From Pseudotevenvirus miller (taxonomy: Duplodnaviria; Heunggongvirae; Uroviricota; Caudoviricetes; Straboviridae): a DNA stretch of 64,000 nt. The DNA is taken from IMG/VR virus record IMGVR_UViG_2706796139_000001, positions 50,895 to 114,894 of that record; one strand, 5' to 3'. Below, piece after piece: positions 50,257-55,067 of this stretch. Position numbers and translations under genes: made by a program. Every line of letters begins with the position of its first letter. Position 1 is the stretch's first letter. The notes below the pieces were generated by a model. It searched no databases. It was not told where the DNA came from and saw only the letters and a list, made by a program, of their open reading frames with translations.

Positions 50257-50539
50257 ATTCTTCGTAGTCCTCGCAGTCTGGGAGATACGTTTCACAGAAC
50301 ATGCACAGCGTGAAGAAAGTAGGCTGGCGAATCCCTGGGTTATCCGGTAGATACATCCAGAACGTGTTAGCAAACACGATGAAGGTTTTCAGGTTTTCGA
50401 CAGTGATTTCGCTGATACCGTCATAACCGGATTGAGCAATTGCACGTTCCAGGGGAACAGGGTATTGCTCGCAATATTCGGCGTAATGTTCACTCAATAA
50501 CATTGAGTTAGCCGCTTTTACAAGATCGATGATTTTCAT
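50246..50539 (-). CDS. hypothetical protein (97 aa)
   Basis: ORF. Confidence 0.4.
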   Translation of the reverse strand: MKIIDLVKAANSMLLSEHYAEYCEQYPVPLERAIAQSGYDGISEITVENLKTFIVFANTFWMYLPDNPGIRQPTFFTLCMFCETYLPDCEDYEEYYG

Positions 50540-51006
50540 GCTTTGACATATTCCACTTTAACAGGTTTGGCGATAAGGTGATCTTTGGTGTAACCTTGTC
50601 CGTCGCAAACATCACAAACGATTTTGAAATCTTCCATTTGGTCGACCCATCCAGAATCAGGCAATCCAGAAGGGTACGTGTTGAAGGTTTTAACACTGTA
50701 TCCTTTTCCATCACACTTAGGGCATTTATACGGGTATTTCGATTTGATCGCACTATACAATTGACCCAGTGTGGTCGAATGATCAAAGTGTATAACAAGT
50801 GCTTCAACGTCAGCAATGCGCAATTCGTTTGGCTTGATCACAGTAAACACATTTGAAGGTATGTTTGGACGCATAATATATTTCTCACTTAAAGAATTTT
50901 TTGATGAAAGAGAGGAACAATCCACCGCCGAACATGATCCAGTATCCCGCGCCGTCACCGTGAAACAGGACGTAAACCGCGACACCATAACAAAAGATTT
51001 CTGCAA
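50536..51006 (-). CDS. protein with two DnaJ-type CxxCxGxG zinc-finger motifs
   Basis: CPKCDGKGY and CDVCDGQGY. Start uncertain. Confidence 0.4.
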   Translation of the reverse strand: MQKSFVMVSRFTSCFTVTARDTGSCSAVDCSSLSSKNSLSEKYIMRPNIPSNVFTVIKPNELRIADVEALVIHFDHSTTLGQLYSAIKSKYPYKCPKCDGKGYSVKTFNTYPSGLPDSGWVDQMEDFKIVCDVCDGQGYTKDHLIAKPVKVEYVKA

Positions 51007-51252: not shown

Positions 51253-51320
51253 CATGATTGTCTCCTTTGTTTCGACACCCCTAATATAACAAAAGCCCCT
51301 GCACGAATGCAAGGGTTTTT
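51253..51320 (-). promoter_or_regulatory. PeSL-like cassette (minus strand)
   Basis: Reverse complement: aaaaacccTTGCATtcgtgcaggggcttttgTTATATTaggggtgtcgaaacaaaggagacaatcATG. Confidence 0.55.
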
Positions 51321-51860
51321 TCAAATATTTTTCAACATACGTAGTTGAGGTGGACAATCAGGAGAAGCAATCAGACGATCCAGACGAGACATAACGCGAC
51401 GGTATCCGTCATACTCAAACTTGATTTTAGGCGGTACGTAGTTCACGTTAATTGCGTTGCGCGTGTTAATGTTTGCTTCGTACTCAGGGATCACAGTTCG
51501 TAAGCGTAGCGCGATCACTGGCTTTTCTTCACCATCAAACAACTGGACGGTACAAACACACGCAAACACCTTACCATTAACGCGACGATAAGCAATAAGC
51601 TCTTGTGCGCCACCACCTTTCGTTTTAACTGCATGGTGTAGAACGTTACACGAATAATGTTTCGCAAGGCTAATCAAGATATCTCGATACAGTTCGAAAT
51701 CTTTCTTGATAGAAGAAGAACGGTCAATAAAACGATCTGCAATATGATCTCGTGTTGCAGATACCTTGACAGTATAGAAATCACCAAGAACAATATTAAA
51801 CAAGTCGTTTATTTCTTTCCGTACATCATTGATACGAGACATCAATCGTGTTCTGTTCAT
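51321..51860 (-). CDS. hypothetical protein (179 aa)
   Basis: ORF. Confidence 0.45.
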   Translation of the reverse strand: MNRTRLMSRINDVRKEINDLFNIVLGDFYTVKVSATRDHIADRFIDRSSSIKKDFELYRDILISLAKHYSCNVLHHAVKTKGGGAQELIAYRRVNGKVFACVCTVQLFDGEEKPVIALRLRTVIPEYEANINTRNAINVNYVPPKIKFEYDGYRRVMSRLDRLIASPDCPPQLRMLKNI

Positions 51861-51863
51861 AAA

Positions 51864-52487
51864 TCACCCATTACGCTTAAAGTATTCGATCTGGCGTAAG
51901 CGTTTTTCCGCAGCCTCTTTCGAATCATATTCACCAAGTTCTTTCGTGCGGTCTTGATTCAGGATAACCCATTTATCGCCGCGATGTTCGATGTGCTCCG
52001 TGATATCTTCAACAGTTTTATCAAGATCCAGCGGTTCAGCATCTTCCTCGATAATAGTCAAATCTACGGGCAGTGTCAACAGTCTTTTCACTCCGCTGAT
52101 ATCTTCTATACGGGAATCATATGCAAGCGTAACATGCGGTTTGTAATCGTCGTAATCATAGGTTGCTCCGGCATCCATCGCATCTTTAAACCGACTATGA
52201 AGATAATCCGATTCCAGAACACCGACGATTGTATTGCCATACTTCGTTTCCCACTTTTCAACATCAACCAAACGGGCAGGTTCAGAGATACCGGAAGCAG
52301 GGAACAGATCAACAGTTTTACGACTATACACAATCGTTGTATGCAGTTTTTCAGCAGAAACAGGATTCTCTACACCCAGAAGTTTTTGCACTTGAGCAAG
52401 CGCTTCACAGGAAGCCTGGTCGAACTTCGCACACATATAGATCCCTGGATCTTTCACAGGTTTCGCAATTTCAATAAAACTTTTCAT
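51864..52487 (-). CDS. 2H phosphoesterase superfamily protein (LigT-like); candidate Acb1/gp57B-like cyclic-nucleotide phosphodiesterase
   Basis: Two H-x-T/S motifs (HTTIVYS and HVTLAY). Sits 57B-like, after gene 1 and a 57A-like coiled-coil ORF. Confidence 0.6.
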   Translation of the reverse strand: MKSFIEIAKPVKDPGIYMCAKFDQASCEALAQVQKLLGVENPVSAEKLHTTIVYSRKTVDLFPASGISEPARLVDVEKWETKYGNTIVGVLESDYLHSRFKDAMDAGATYDYDDYKPHVTLAYDSRIEDISGVKRLLTLPVDLTIIEEDAEPLDLDKTVEDITEHIEHRGDKWVILNQDRTKELGEYDSKEAAEKRLRQIEYFKRNG

Positions 52488-52502
52488 GTGTACTCCAAAT
52501 GA

Positions 52503-52521
52503 AAAAGGGGCTTTCGCCCCC
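52503..52521 (-). terminator. rho-independent terminator (minus strand)
   Basis: Reverse complement gggggcGAAAgccccttttt. Confidence 0.45.
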
Positions 52522-52539
52522 AGGTTAAACGCCTAAGCG

Positions 52540-52794
52540 TTATTCTTTTTCGGTTGATTCTGCTTCATCAGGTTCCGGCAGGAGGGCGCGGATTGCACCC
52601 AAGAGGGCATCAGGAGATACACCTTGAGAACCGTCGATTTCCAGCAGTTGGCAAATCTGGCCTACGAGTTGACGATGGCTAGTCAGTTCGTTTTCTTTAC
52701 CTTGAAGGATTTCATTCAGGTCGAAAACACGGGCTTTCAGGATCAGTACATCGTTTTGCAGTTGCTGGGTTTGGTTTTGGGTTTGTTCAGTCAT
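52540..52794 (-). CDS. small coiled-coil protein, gp57A-like by position
   Basis: 84 aa, Gln/Leu-rich coiled coil, immediately downstream of gene 1, as T4 57A is. Confidence 0.35.
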   Translation of the reverse strand: MTEQTQNQTQQLQNDVLILKARVFDLNEILQGKENELTSHRQLVGQICQLLEIDGSQGVSPDALLGAIRALLPEPDEAESTEKE

Positions 52795-52805
52795 TGTTTA
52801 CACTC

Positions 52806-53468
52806 TTAAAAGTTAAATACATTCAGCACGTCAGCTTTCAATTCACTAAGCGTACCATTATTTAGGATGATAATATCATTGGGTTGAGGTTTCAAGCCTT
52901 TCTCAGTTGAATGGCTATCATCTTCACCAGTTTCACGTTCGATGAATACAAATTTAGCTCCGAACTTGCTCAGATATTTATATTCATGTTTTTGTCGAAC
53001 ATCCGTAATGATAAAGTTATCTTTGTCGGATTTCAACATTTTCTTCAATACAATATCAGTCCATACAGAATCGTTATTATTACACACGATATCCGTACCG
53101 AAAACCTGCATCAGACGGCGTATTGTCCAGGGCTGTTTGTTGTTTCTGCAAATCTCAAAAGCAGCAATATCAGCATTTCTGAGAGAATAACCTTGTTTGG
53201 TCAACGCTTTAACACCAAAGCTAAACAATACTCGCGCATCCTCGTTAGACATCAACAAGGGGGCTTCACGATCGCCTGAATAGAATGGGTTTGTTTTAGA
53301 AAGTTCACACAGATAGCGATTGTCTACTGATGACTCCATTCCGTTTCTCAGGATACGTTTAATTTCATCAGCAAGCGCCAGCGTTTCAACGTTCTCGTAG
53401 TTCATCGTAACGAATTGCGCAACAGTATCTTTGCCCGTTCGTTTTTTACCACAAATGCAATAAATCAT
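52806..53468 (-). CDS. 1: deoxynucleoside monophosphate kinase (T4 gp1)
   Basis: P-loop CGKKRTGKDT. WTIRRLMQVFGTDIVCNNND, TDVRQKHE and HSTEKGL match the T4 gp1 blocks. Confidence 0.9.
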   Translation of the reverse strand: MIYCICGKKRTGKDTVAQFVTMNYENVETLALADEIKRILRNGMESSVDNRYLCELSKTNPFYSGDREAPLLMSNEDARVLFSFGVKALTKQGYSLRNADIAAFEICRNNKQPWTIRRLMQVFGTDIVCNNNDSVWTDIVLKKMLKSDKDNFIITDVRQKHEYKYLSKFGAKFVFIERETGEDDSHSTEKGLKPQPNDIIILNNGTLSELKADVLNVFNF

Positions 53469-54004
53469 GATTCTTTTTTCCGTGGAGTCGGCACGATCAC
53501 CCGTCCATCAATTTCAATCTCCATGTGAGTGAAGTTGAACATAGCCATACAGGAAACGGCTTCATCCGAATCGTTTGTATACATAAGCTCAAGCTCTCCG
53601 AGGTTGGAGGGCCAAGCACCATAAAAGCGAAACGTCGCTACAGTTTTTGATTGCGAGTTATCGAGGATATGCAAAGCCATAGCTTGCTGTGATTCACTCC
53701 ATCGAACTGATTCAAAGGTGTTGTAATCAACAGTCCCAAGCATCCACAGGTAAACACCAAGATAAGATCGCAATTCTTCATCAACAGCAAATCGAATGGT
53801 TAACGGATCGAACTCCATTGCTGAACCAGGGATCTTACTTCGGATCATTGGGTTCAGAGGTACATCCGTAATCGGTATGTTGATAGAAGGTAGTGTAACA
53901 CCCTGAACTTGTAGTTTCAACCCTTTCATGTAGTCATTATCAGGAATATCCAATAGAAAGTTGGTTGGTGAAATTTGGTTCAGGATCATAGCAGTAGTGT
54001 TCAT
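53465..54004 (-). CDS. hypothetical structural protein, gp3 (tail completion)-like by size and position
   Basis: 179 aa (T4 gp3 is 176 aa), adjacent to gene 1. Late-promoter-like ATAAATA lies upstream. No motif confirmation. Confidence 0.3.
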   Translation of the reverse strand: MNTTAMILNQISPTNFLLDIPDNDYMKGLKLQVQGVTLPSINIPITDVPLNPMIRSKIPGSAMEFDPLTIRFAVDEELRSYLGVYLWMLGTVDYNTFESVRWSESQQAMALHILDNSQSKTVATFRFYGAWPSNLGELELMYTNDSDEAVSCMAMFNFTHMEIEIDGRVIVPTPRKKES

Positions 54005-54276
54005 TTATGATCTCCATTTTATAGATATTTATGTAGACCGTGAGCGAAGCGAACACACGAACGAAGTGAGTGTTTTTGACTCAACTACATAATTATATAT
54101 TTATATTTTATATATAGAGAAAAATGTAGTTTTTGGTATGGTTTTTAACCAGATGTAAACTATCCGTCTTCGCTTCGCTTGACGGAACTCGCTTCGCTCG
54201 TAACCTTGAATAATTTACTTGATCCTTTCAATAAATAGGTATATCATACCCATACTTTCAAAAGAGATTGAAAACA
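54005..54276. repeat. AT-rich divergent-promoter region with nested inverted repeats
   Basis: The outer repeat gagcgaagcgaa ... ttcgcttcgctc and the inner repeat aactacat ... atgtagtt flank the core aattatatatttatattttatatatagagaaaa. ATAAATA late-promoter-like boxes face both ways. Confidence 0.5.
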
Positions 54277-55067
54277 TGAAATCATTCAAAGAACTACTTT
54301 CTGAATCCACTCAGAACAAAAAATTTGCAAAGACCGTTGAACTGGTTGACCGTAATGGTGTTGCTCCATCAAAAGGCCAGATAGGTTTCCTTCATTTTGC
54401 ACACGGTGCTGATTACGATGTGTATGCGCCGGATTCTCATGACCTGGCTTACTTCGGTAAAGGCGTTGTTCGTCTGAAAGGGAAAACCACTGGTAAAACT
54501 CAGGCTGCATACGTTGACTGGGCTAAGGGTACGGTTTCCTTCTACAGCGGTGATCCTGCTGATGACCTGAAATTCGACAAACCGTTAAAATTCAAAGGTG
54601 CTTCCCTGTACAAAGAAGCCGAAGAAAATCTGGATCTGTACAATCAGTTAGCGGAAGATTTCGAAATCGAACTTCCGTTAGATGAATCACTGGTTAAGGG
54701 TGCTATTTACAAATTGCCAAGCAATGATATGCGCCTGATGTACACTGGGCGTTCAAAGACAAAAGCAACTGGTGAATACGCTGTCTTTACCGTTGTAGAT
54801 GCTTCTGGTAAGCCTCGTCTGGTTTCTGGTAAACGTTTTACCCAAGAATATAAAGGCGATATTCTGTCTAAGCTGGTTCTCGCTGAATCGGAAGACCTGA
54901 ATGAAGCGGCTAAAGACATTCGCGAAAAAGTTATTGCGGTGTTGGTGAAACGCGGGTTTAACGAAAAAGATGCAGAAAAGATGGTTGACAAAAACCTGAA
55001 AGATGCGATGAAAGTTAGACCTGGTGCGACCCCTGGCAAACTTGCAGAAATCGTGAGTACCCTGTAA
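54277..55067 (+). CDS. internal head protein (IP) with a T4-type capsid targeting sequence
   Basis: N-terminal MKSFKELLSE|STQ matches the T4 IP CTS MKTYQEFIAE, cleaved after LxE by the prohead protease. Lys-rich, 263 aa. Lies in the ipI-like neighbourhood (near genes 1, 2 and 3). AATAAATA lies upstream. Confidence 0.55.

What the first reader, a model, noticed from the sequence alone, without database searches (positions are those of the whole stretch)
51864..53468. 2H phosphoesterase in the gp57B/Acb1 syntenic slot
Downstream of dNMP kinase (gene 1) and a 57A-like coiled-coil ORF lies a 207 aa protein with two HxT/S motifs. This position matches T4 57B (acb1), whose product degrades CBASS cyclic oligonucleotides and has a 2H fold. 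This protein is about 55 aa longer than T4 Acb1 and may have a different or broader substrate range.
Basis: partly seen in the sequence, partly recalled or inferred. Interest (0 to 1): 0.55.

Follow-up and report, generated by a model that had tools for sequence, protein, structure and literature searches.

The report
Acb1 anti-CBASS enzyme with extra domain
This gene is the RB43-group copy of phage T4's known Acb1 enzyme, which destroys the bacterial CBASS alarm nucleotides; its only unusual feature is a small extra domain of unknown function at the end, which also occurs in many other phage proteins.

Summary
The window is Citrobacter phage CfP1, an RB43-like T4 relative (100% identity). ORF 51864-52487(-) encodes 207 aa with HTT and HVT motifs, downstream of dNMP kinase and a 57A-type chaperone.

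It is an Acb1 family member, not LigT:
- Pfam Acb1 E 3e-49, against LigT E 0.08.
- 42% identity to T4 Acb1 (E 3e-35).
- Foldseek best hits are Acb1 structures 7T26/7T27 (TM 0.8); LigT reaches TM 0.5 at most.
- Eight of nine functional residues named for T4 Acb1 are kept. The lid Trp147 is Lys here.

RB43's ortholog was already called gp57B, and some GenBank records already say "anti-CBASS protein".

The extra 55 aa are mostly not an enlarged active site. About 45 of them form a separately folding helix/three-strand/helix mini-domain (pLDDT 85). This domain belongs to a large family with no Pfam or NCBIfam model (phrog_3684; 1264 clusters). It occurs as 45-65 aa solo phage proteins and inside portal-fused or "polyvalent" cargo proteins. 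Close Acb1 relatives lack it, and a second Acb1 lineage seems to have gained it independently.

Its function is unknown. I favour an autonomous accessory or binding unit. Overall this is a known enzyme in a new two-domain form, of modest interest.

The parts
51864..52487 (-). acb1 (gene 57B ortholog), 207 aa plus stop
   Evidence: ORF list. Pfam Acb1 PF23474 E 3.3e-49. 100% identical to CfP1 BI032_gp163.
52446..52487 (-). N-terminal 14 residues MKSFIEIAKPVKDP. Conserved within the 'MKSF' clade and predicted disordered. Possible N-terminal lid; role unknown.
   Evidence: Alignment A1. pLDDT 41 for residues 1-10. Translation.
52014..52445 (-). Acb1 2H phosphodiesterase core (residues 15-158)
   Evidence: Pfam match covers residues 15-158 and profile positions 2-142 of 144. 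PDB 7t26 E 8e-26. Foldseek 7t27 E 8e-14.
52335..52343 (-). First catalytic motif H49-T50-T51 (T4 H44/T46)
   Evidence: Translation. H49 and T51 are invariant in 30 homologs. BLASTP alignment to T4 Acb1.
52128..52136 (-). Second catalytic motif H118-V119-T120 (T4 H113/T115)
   Evidence: Translation. H118 is invariant and T120 is conserved in at least 90% of homologs.
51996..52031 (-). Lid-equivalent segment LDLDKTVEDITE (residues 153-164). K157 replaces the base-stacking lid Trp147 of T4 Acb1.
   Evidence: A1 alignment with T4-type sequences ending LDWAEDLK. T4 sequence. Lid role from PMC9117128.
51867..51995 (-). C-terminal mini-domain (residues 165-207: three strands and a long helix). The family profile also covers the preceding short helix, starting at residue 156.
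   Evidence: AF2 models. phrog_3684 E 7e-10. Profile search found 1264 clusters. This is the only copy in the window.
52493..52496 (-). Shine-Dalgarno GGAG, 6 nt upstream of the ATG
   Evidence: Sequence read.
52506..52521 (-). Intrinsic-terminator-like hairpin between 57A and acb1. No promoter-like site lies between it and the ATG.
   Evidence: Scan. Annotated as a terminator in NC_031057.
52540..52794 (-). 57A-type tail fiber chaperone, 84 aa
   Evidence: phrog_1002 E 1.4e-26.
52806..53468 (-). Gene 1, dNMP kinase, 220 aa
   Evidence: Pfam DNMK E 1.5e-54.
51321..51860 (-). Downstream 179-aa ORF of unknown function. It lies in the same terminator-bounded unit and occupies the slot that holds ipI in T4.
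   Evidence: phrog_7718 E 2e-103, unknown function. Terminator at 51296-51315. T4 gene order.

Best explanation
The gene encodes the Pseudotevenvirus (RB43-group) ortholog of T4 Acb1.

Enzyme (inferred by homology). Acb1 is a metal-independent 2H phosphodiesterase that defeats CBASS immunity by cutting the host's cyclic di- and trinucleotide signals (3'3'-cGAMP, cUA, cAAA) 3' of adenosine. The 2'-OH attacks over an HxT/HxT tetrad, and the reaction passes through a cyclic-phosphate intermediate. Here the tetrad is H49/T51/H118/T120. The base-stacking residues are Y17, W79 and Y112, and the adenine-reading Glu is E151.

Architecture (shown). The protein has two domains. A complete Acb1 unit (residues 1-164, including a lid segment that lacks the lid Trp) is followed by an independently folding domain of about 45 aa, made of a short helix, three strands and a long helix. 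This domain belongs to a large mobile phage family with no Pfam or NCBIfam model of its own.

Role of the extra domain (inferred, about 0.3). It is an autonomous accessory unit in the manner of phage 'polyvalent' proteins. It would bind a conserved partner or ligand on its own rather than shape catalysis, making the protein bivalent. It is dispensable for Acb1 function.
For: Family membership:
- Pfam Acb1 166.8 bits against a cutoff of 27.
- FBB1 Acb1 (7t26) E 8e-26 by sequence, and TM 0.79-0.81 by fold.
- T4 Acb1 42% identity over 142 aa, E 3e-35.
- Same 3-1-57A-57B gene order as T4 and RB43.
- Catalytic and ligand residues named in PMC9117128 are kept, except W147.

Domain autonomy:
- Modelled alone, the domain reaches pLDDT 85.
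- The top 120 of 428 family hits are solo proteins of 43-90 aa, none with a Pfam hit.
- Among the best 150 of 1264 clusters, 50 are solo proteins of at most 100 aa, and the other copies lie at an N-terminus (16), a C-terminus (34) or internally (65).

Fusion partners typical of capsid cargo and polyvalent proteins (Iyer 2017): Phage_portal_3 x9, DUF2213/XkdF protease x4, InPase, ART-PolyVal, MuF, NUDIX, and Acb1 in a 2069-aa protein.

Dispensability: relatives with 61-92% core identity lack the domain and end at '...DIT(E)'.

Recurrent fusion: a second Acb1+domain fusion (P0020) sits in the same slot of another T4-like contig. Its core is closest to module-less T4-type Acb1 (56-57%). Its domain is closer to solo 'QLRAIEANK'-type copies (62-69%) than to CfP1's (51%).
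Against: - No enzymology exists for any RB43-type Acb1.
- The lid Trp147, which stacks on the substrate, is Lys here, and deleting the lid inactivates T4 Acb1 in vivo. Activity or specificity could therefore differ.
- The contexts of solo copies are heterogeneous: head module, replication module, tRNA clusters and a cellular contig.
- The case for independent fusion rests on identities over only about 40 residues.
Confidence: 0.75

Rival explanations
1. The C-terminal domain is an enlarged lid. It closes over the active site in place of the short Trp lid of T4/FBB1 Acb1 and changes or broadens the substrate range.
For: The domain follows directly on the lid-equivalent segment. Both Acb1 lineages that carry it lack the lid Trp: K157 here and 'LDDNPL' in P0020. 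Lids are needed for activity and have arisen more than once in this family.
Against: Relatives in the same clade that lack the domain also lack the Trp, so Trp loss is not tied to the domain. The domain is a mobile unit found alone and in unrelated proteins. Lid-swap experiments place specificity in the core. The linker has low confidence (pLDDT 66) and pTM is 0.67, so no fixed docking is predicted.
Confidence: 0.15
2. RB43-type Acb1 is loaded into the capsid and injected with the DNA, and the extra domain is a capsid-cargo or portal-associated module. Anti-CBASS activity would then be present before any phage gene is expressed.
For: - Seventeen or so of 78 multi-domain carriers have head-morphogenesis domains (portal, MuF, prohead protease, capsid), and others have polyvalent-protein domains.
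- 2H and InPase domains fused to portal or MuF were predicted to be injected (PMC5512222).
- The C-terminus of the Pam3 portal (PDB 8hds) resembles Acb1 (E 9e-5).
- One solo copy lies directly after a putative portal gene.
- The Acb1 ortholog of a T4-like Jiaodavirus gave 18/17 peptide matches in CsCl-purified virions (PMC13119998 Table 3; identity checked).
- An I-T-E/H site at the domain boundary fits my recollection of the T4 prohead protease consensus (L/I-x-E).
Against: - T4-type capsid targeting uses an N-terminal leader. MKSFIEIAKP resembles the start of the T4 IPI protein (MKTFKEF), which I recall as its capsid-targeting leader, only loosely and has no cleavage Glu.
- The virion sample in that paper contained peptides of 153 proteins, including helicase, and that Acb1 lacks the domain.
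- Many solo copies lie in early regions or tRNA regions, or in cellular DNA.
- No late-promoter motif lies directly upstream of acb1.
Confidence: 0.15
3. The extra domain is a small nucleic-acid-binding domain (AP2/integrase-like or dsRBD-like) that tethers Acb1 to phage DNA or to RNA.
For: - The topology (helix, three strands, helix) is typical of such binders.
- Phage AP2 proteins appear among BFVD hits.
- The family has a mean net charge of +3.6, with invariant or near-invariant K27, K49 and an aromatic at position 18.
- There is weak similarity to DUF2188.
- The motif LGxYDSKEEA resembles the AP2 and dsRBD motifs.
Confidence: 0.2
4. The protein is a LigT/ThpR-type 2'-5' RNA ligase or RNA 2',3'-cyclic phosphodiesterase used in RNA repair, as the RefSeq label 'RNA ligase' implies.
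For: RefSeq and PHROG 755 call it 'RNA ligase'. It has the 2H fold and two HxT motifs. Weak Pfam hits: 2_5_RNA_ligase2 E 0.009 and LigT_PEase E 0.078.
Against: Both Pfam hits are far below their cutoffs, while Acb1 scores 166.8 bits. LigT structures align with TM <=0.5 and rmsd of about 10 A, against 0.8 for Acb1. T4 57B was shown to be Acb1 (PMC9117128). 2H domains of this type never associate with RNA ligases (PMC5512222).
Confidence: 0.03

Closest known systems
T4 Acb1 (gene 57B, NP_049750.1), anti-CBASS nuclease
   Same: Same slot (3-1-57A-57B). 42% identity, E 3e-35. HxT/HxT tetrad, Y12, W74 and E141 equivalents, with F107 as Tyr. EPL motif before the lid.
   Different: 55 aa longer. Lid Trp147 is Lys157. 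The N-terminus is 5 residues longer and conserved (MKSF...). There is an added 45-aa C-terminal domain. T4 has ipI downstream, whereas here an unrelated 179-aa ORF follows.
Erwinia phage FBB1 Acb1 (PDB 7T26/7T27)
   Same: Best sequence hit (E 8e-26) and best fold hit (E 8e-14, TM 0.8). Compact 2H fold.
   Different: FBB1 ends with a short lid that orders over the substrate. Here the homologous segment continues into a separate domain.
Burkholderia phage BCSR5 phosphodiesterase ('2H PDE-9', PDB 9Q2G/9Q2Y)
   Same: Same structural group. Foldseek E 8e-10, TM 0.71. Like the CfP1 protein it has about 15 residues before the GxY strand; in PDE-9 these residues are the lid.
   Different: Only about 20% identity. 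Whether the CfP1 N-terminus acts as a lid is untested. PDE-9 has no C-terminal domain.
2H domains of phage polyvalent, portal-fused or MuF-fused proteins (Iyer et al. 2017, PMC5512222)
   Same: The Acb1-type 2H domain and the mini-domain occur together in a 2069-aa protein that also carries NUDIX (P0165). The mini-domain's partners are those of polyvalent proteins.
   Different: The CfP1 protein is small, has two domains, lacks a portal, MuF or processing-peptidase domain, and is encoded outside the head module.
Pfam DUF2188 (function unknown; linked to defence operons in the literature)
   Same: Five of 78 carriers of the mini-domain hit DUF2188 weakly on that region (best E 2e-5). Similar size.
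   Different: The CfP1 copy does not hit DUF2188 even at E 10. The relationship is at most distant.
LigT/ThpR 2'-5' RNA ligase family
   Same: 2H superfamily fold and two HxT motifs.
   Different: Sub-threshold sequence match and poor structural superposition.

Membership tests
Acb1 (Pfam PF23474; T4 57B type) | Sequence match to the family profile above the curated threshold | tested here: met
   166.8 bits against a cutoff of 27, covering profile positions 2-142 of 144.
Acb1 (Pfam PF23474; T4 57B type) | Compact 2H fold closest to solved Acb1 structures | tested here: met
   AF2 model pLDDT 86. Foldseek 7t27/7t26 E 8e-14, TM 0.79-0.81, ahead of every LigT, CPDase or Usb1 entry.
Acb1 (Pfam PF23474; T4 57B type) | HxT/HxT catalytic tetrad (T4 H44, T46, H113, T115) | tested here: met
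   H49, T51, H118 and T120.
Acb1 (Pfam PF23474; T4 57B type) | Base-stacking aromatics (Y12, W74, F107) and adenine-reading Glu (E141) | tested here: met
   Y17, W79, Y112 (a conservative change) and E151.
Acb1 (Pfam PF23474; T4 57B type) | Short C-terminal lid carrying Trp147 that closes over the ligand | tested here: not met
   The homologous segment LDLDKTVEDITE is present, but Trp is Lys157 and the chain continues into another domain. Many Pfam Acb1 members also lack this Trp, so it defines the T4/FBB1 subtype rather than the family.
Acb1 (Pfam PF23474; T4 57B type) | Genomic position next to 57A and gene 1 in T4-like phages | tested here: met
Acb1 (Pfam PF23474; T4 57B type) | Cleavage of 3'3'-cGAMP or cAAA, and protection from CBASS | not testable with these tools
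   This requires enzymology and phage genetics. No data on an RB43-type protein were found in the papers searched.
LigT/ThpR 2'-5' RNA ligase | Profile match above threshold and LigT-like fold | tested here: not met
   PF02834 13.6 bits against a cutoff of 23.3. PF13563 16.5 bits against 27. TM <=0.5.
Phage polyvalent proteins (Iyer et al. 2017) | Several effector domains in one polypeptide, usually large, with virion-associated context | tested here: inconclusive
   There are two domains, and the second is typical of polyvalent or portal-fused proteins. But the protein is only 207 aa, lies outside the head module, and virion association is untested.
DUF2188 (PF09954) | Profile match of the C-terminal domain | tested here: inconclusive
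   No hit for the CfP1 domain at E 10. Five of 78 relatives hit weakly.
AP2/integrase or dsRBD nucleic-acid-binding domains | Significant profile or structural similarity | tested here: not met

The most novel reading that the evidence does not exclude
The 45-aa C-terminal domain is a widespread phage domain with no curated family model. It marks proteins that travel inside the capsid, or is itself an injected effector. RB43-type phages would then deliver ready-made Acb1 with their DNA, so that CBASS signals are destroyed from the first moment of infection. The domain would be the handle for loading or for riding on the genome.
Probability: 0.13. Interest if true: 0.65.

Novelty: new variant of a known kind. 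Interest (0 to 1): 0.3.

Why it matters
The enzyme itself adds nothing new. Acb1 is characterised, and this ortholog is already in Pfam's Acb1 family and in GenBank. Two points have some value.

First, the common RefSeq/PHROG label 'RNA ligase' on about 1200 phage genomes is a misnomer for an anti-CBASS nuclease.

Second, the appended mini-domain belongs to a very large family (1264 clusters at 50% identity) that has no Pfam or NCBIfam model and no solved structure. It recurs in portal-fused and polyvalent cargo proteins, next to nucleotide-handling enzymes (Acb1, InPase, NUDIX). Working out what it binds could show how phages deliver or localise counter-defence enzymes. The naturally occurring pairs with and without the domain (92% identical cores) give a clean experimental handle.

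Tried and rejected
- Pfam scan of the C-terminal 51 aa alone at E 10 gave only a meaningless FAM25 hit. NCBIfam gave nothing.
- A PDB sequence search with the domain profile gave nothing significant. Best hits were thioredoxin reductase (E 0.28) and AP2 WRI1 (E 0.43).
- I tested my own impressions that the domain resembles AP2, the lambda Int N-domain or dsRBD. hhalign probabilities were 8.7%, 0.4% and 2.7%, so I rejected these as homology claims.
- I asked whether the N-terminus is a capsid-targeting leader. MKSFIEIAKP shares M-K-S/T-F-x-E with the start of the T4 IPI protein, MKTFKEF, but has no cleavage Glu. Only 5 ORFs in the window start MK[ST][FY]. I kept this as a lead only.
- No late-promoter motif TATAAATA lies directly upstream of acb1, and the 4 in the window are not more than chance.
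- I looked for a gene-fission partner. Pantoea phage Phynn, which lacks the domain, has no solo copy next to acb1.
- There is no second copy of the domain in the window.
- The Hobbs et al. supplements do not mention RB43-type proteins. The Iyer et al. supplements and Burroughs & Aravind 2020 are not held. I therefore could not check whether the domain equals one of their 'LPD' domains.
Full report
**Source and observation.** The 3.1 kb around the finding is 100% identical to Citrobacter phage vB_CfrM_CfP1 (NC_031057; Pseudotevenvirus miller) and about 87% identical to RB43. On the minus strand lie four genes:
- gene 3 (53465-54004);
- gene 1, dNMP kinase (52806-53468; Pfam DNMK E 1.5e-54);
- an 84-aa 57A-type tail-fiber chaperone (52540-52794; phrog_1002 E 1.4e-26);
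- the 207-aa ORF at 51864-52487.

The start codon has a GGAG 6 nt upstream and follows a terminator hairpin. The two motifs are H49-T-T51 and H118-V-T120. T4 has the same order 3-1-57A-57B, and its 57B product is 152 aa.

**What the protein is.**
- Pfam places residues 15-158 in the Acb1 family (E 3.3e-49, 166.8 bits). LigT-type models are far below threshold.
- The best solved relative is Erwinia phage FBB1 Acb1 (E 8e-26).
- BLASTP against T4 Acb1 gives 42% identity over 142 residues (E 3e-35).
- An AlphaFold model (pLDDT 86) finds 7T27/7T26 first (E 8e-14, TM 0.8). The Burkholderia phage BCSR5 phosphodiesterase comes next (E 8e-10). LigT, CPDase and Usb1 follow only at TM <=0.5.

Hobbs et al. 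defined the functional residues of T4 Acb1 (PMC9117128). They map as follows: Y12 to Y17, H44 to H49, T46 to T51, W74 to W79, F107 to Y112, H113 to H118, T115 to T120 and E141 to E151. All are conserved. The lid residue W147 maps to K157.

The mechanism is an inference from homology. The substrate is cut by metal-independent acid-base cleavage 3' of adenosine, through a 2',3'-cyclic phosphate. This removes the CBASS signals before the effectors fire.

**This is not new as a gene.** RB43's ortholog was annotated gp57B. Some GenBank records call orthologs 'anti-CBASS protein', 'anti-CBASS Acb1-like protein' or 'cyclic phosphodiesterase'. The RefSeq label 'RNA ligase' comes from PHROG 755 and is misleading.

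**The extra length.** An alignment of 30 homologs shows that the Acb1 unit, including a segment homologous to the T4 lid, ends at residue 164. The T4 lid reads LDWAEDLK; here it reads LDKTVEDIT. Relatives with 61-92% core identity stop exactly there, at '...DIT', '...DITE..' or '...DITESK'. Pantoea phage Phynn is one example (174 aa).

Residues 165-207 form three strands and a long helix, preceded by the short helix of the linker. This is predicted with good confidence both in the whole protein and when folded alone (pLDDT 85).

**The mini-domain is a large mobile family without a curated model.** A profile of the domain, searched against 1.84 billion representative proteins, found 1264 clusters at E <=1e-3.

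Among the best 150, 50 are solo proteins of at most 100 aa. The other copies sit at an N-terminus (16), a C-terminus (34) or internally (65), and some proteins carry two copies. A second search returned 428 hits. The best 120 are all 43-90 aa 'hypothetical proteins' without any Pfam domain. In PHROGs the domain falls in phrog_3684, 'unknown function'. NCBIfam has nothing.

A Pfam census of 78 multi-domain carriers gave:
- Phage_portal_3 (9) and Portal_Mu;
- DUF2213/Peptidase_S78_2 (4), Mu_F and a capsid protein;
- InPase (3), ART-PolyVal (3), DUF5661/5662, NUDIX, SprT and ParB_N;
- weak DUF2188 matches on the domain itself (5; best E 2e-5).

One 2069-aa protein carries NUDIX, the mini-domain and an Acb1-type 2H domain. 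These are the partners of the 'polyvalent proteins' of Iyer et al. 2017. Those authors argued that portal- or MuF-fused 2H and InPase domains are packaged and injected, and that they might degrade defence nucleotides.

In real phage genomes the domain is:
- a 65-aa solo protein among tRNA genes in Kuttervirus ECML-4;
- a solo protein next to tRNA clusters in Aeromonas phage Ah1 and Vibrio phage phi-pp2;
- the N-terminus of the DUF2213 protease/scaffold protein in Skatevirus PJN025;
- a solo gene right after a putative portal gene in one metagenomic phage, in a replication module in another, and in a cellular-looking contig in a third.

**Evolution of the fusion.** About 175 phage records carry a copy at least 60% identical to CfP1's. 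All sampled ones lie in the 57B gene of RB43-, Slopekvirus- and related genomes. Acb1 itself occurs in about 1200 records.

A second fusion, P0020 (190 aa), lies in the same gp3-gene1-57A slot of another T4-like contig. Its core is closest to module-less T4-type Acb1 (56-57%, against 43% to CfP1). Its mini-domain is closer to 'QLRAIEANK'-type solo copies (62-69%) than to CfP1's 'RLRQIEYFK' type (51%). This suggests that the domain was joined to Acb1 at least twice and lost several times. The sequences are short, so I treat this as suggestive only.

**What the mini-domain does is not established.**
- No solved structure contains it.
- Profile comparisons with AP2, lambda Int and dsRBD are not significant.
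- The family is on average basic (+3.6 over 41 residues), but the range is -5 to +12 and the CfP1 copy is +1.
- Conserved polar positions are K27, E46 and K49, with an invariant Ala38 and an aromatic at position 18.

I favour the reading that it is an autonomous accessory unit, as in polyvalent proteins, which binds some conserved partner independently of catalysis. My confidence in that role is about 0.3. The rivals are an enlarged lid, a capsid-cargo role and a nucleic-acid tether.

For the capsid idea there is one independent hint. In CsCl-purified virions of the T4-like Klebsiella phage ValerieMcCarty03/04, 'gp165/162 RNA ligase' gave 18/17 peptide matches, similar to gp2 and the prohead protease (PMC13119998 Table 3). 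I confirmed that gp165 is the Acb1 ortholog, 79% identical to T4 and in the same slot. However, that sample contained peptides of 153 proteins, and that Acb1 has no mini-domain.

**Verdict.** It is a known enzyme family in its known genomic slot. The one feature not described in the papers I could search is the two-domain form, with a widespread mini-domain that has no Pfam or NCBIfam model and no assigned function. That gives modest interest (0.3). The more novel reading, a capsid-delivered or otherwise targeted Acb1, is possible but unproven (about 0.13).

Noticed in passing
window 54276-55067 (+): A 263-aa protein (phrog_7322, unknown function, no Pfam hit) lies between gene 3 and gene 2 on the opposite strand. 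It starts MKSFKELLSE/S, which resembles the start of the T4 internal protein IPI (MKTFKEF...). It also has an L-S-E site fitting the T4 prohead-protease consensus as I recall it. It is a candidate injected internal head protein.
   Followed up: partly
L003 2441-2638; L014 2980-3141; L015 2968-3147: Solo copies of the mini-domain lie inside or directly beside tRNA gene clusters in three unrelated large myoviruses: Kuttervirus ECML-4, Aeromonas phage Ah1 and Vibrio phage phi-pp2. In two of them a tRNA gene starts 2-5 nt after the stop codon. In T4 the tRNA region lies just past 57B-ipI.
   Followed up: partly
PDB 8hds chain A residues 486-592 (hit): The C-terminal part of the cyanophage Pam3 portal protein matches Acb1 (E 9e-5), including HVTIAYS and HISLS motifs. 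This is a solved example of a portal-fused Acb1-like 2H domain.
   Followed up: no
window 51321-51860 (-): A 179-aa ORF (phrog_7718, unknown function; weak RE_HaeII hit, E 0.05) starts 3 nt after the acb1 stop and shares its terminator-bounded unit. It occupies the slot that holds the anti-restriction gene ipI in T4. A strong sigma-70-like site (TTGACA-17-TATTAT, 52051-52079) lies inside acb1 upstream of it.
   Followed up: no
L017 3051-3506 (Klebsiella phage ValerieMcCarty03 gp165): A published virion proteome lists this 'RNA ligase' among proteins of purified virions. It is in fact the Acb1 ortholog (79% identical to T4). The paper does not name Acb1 or anti-CBASS anywhere in its text.
   Followed up: yes
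L013 1592-1879 and 1953-2411 (T4 ipI and 57B): The N-terminus of T4 Acb1 (MMEFKDFST) resembles the start of the neighbouring gene ipI product (MKTFKEFTST).
   Followed up: no
window 50536-51006 (-): A 156-aa ORF (annotated start gives 112 aa) with a DnaJ-type CxxCxGxG zinc-finger pattern (Pfam E 5e-4; phrog_6730, unknown function).
   Followed up: no
RefSeq/GenBank records: Acb1 orthologs carry at least six different product names: RNA ligase, hypothetical protein, gp57B, anti-CBASS protein, cyclic phosphodiesterase, and putative RNA 2',3'-cyclic phosphodiesterase. 'RNA ligase' is the RefSeq default.
   Followed up: partly
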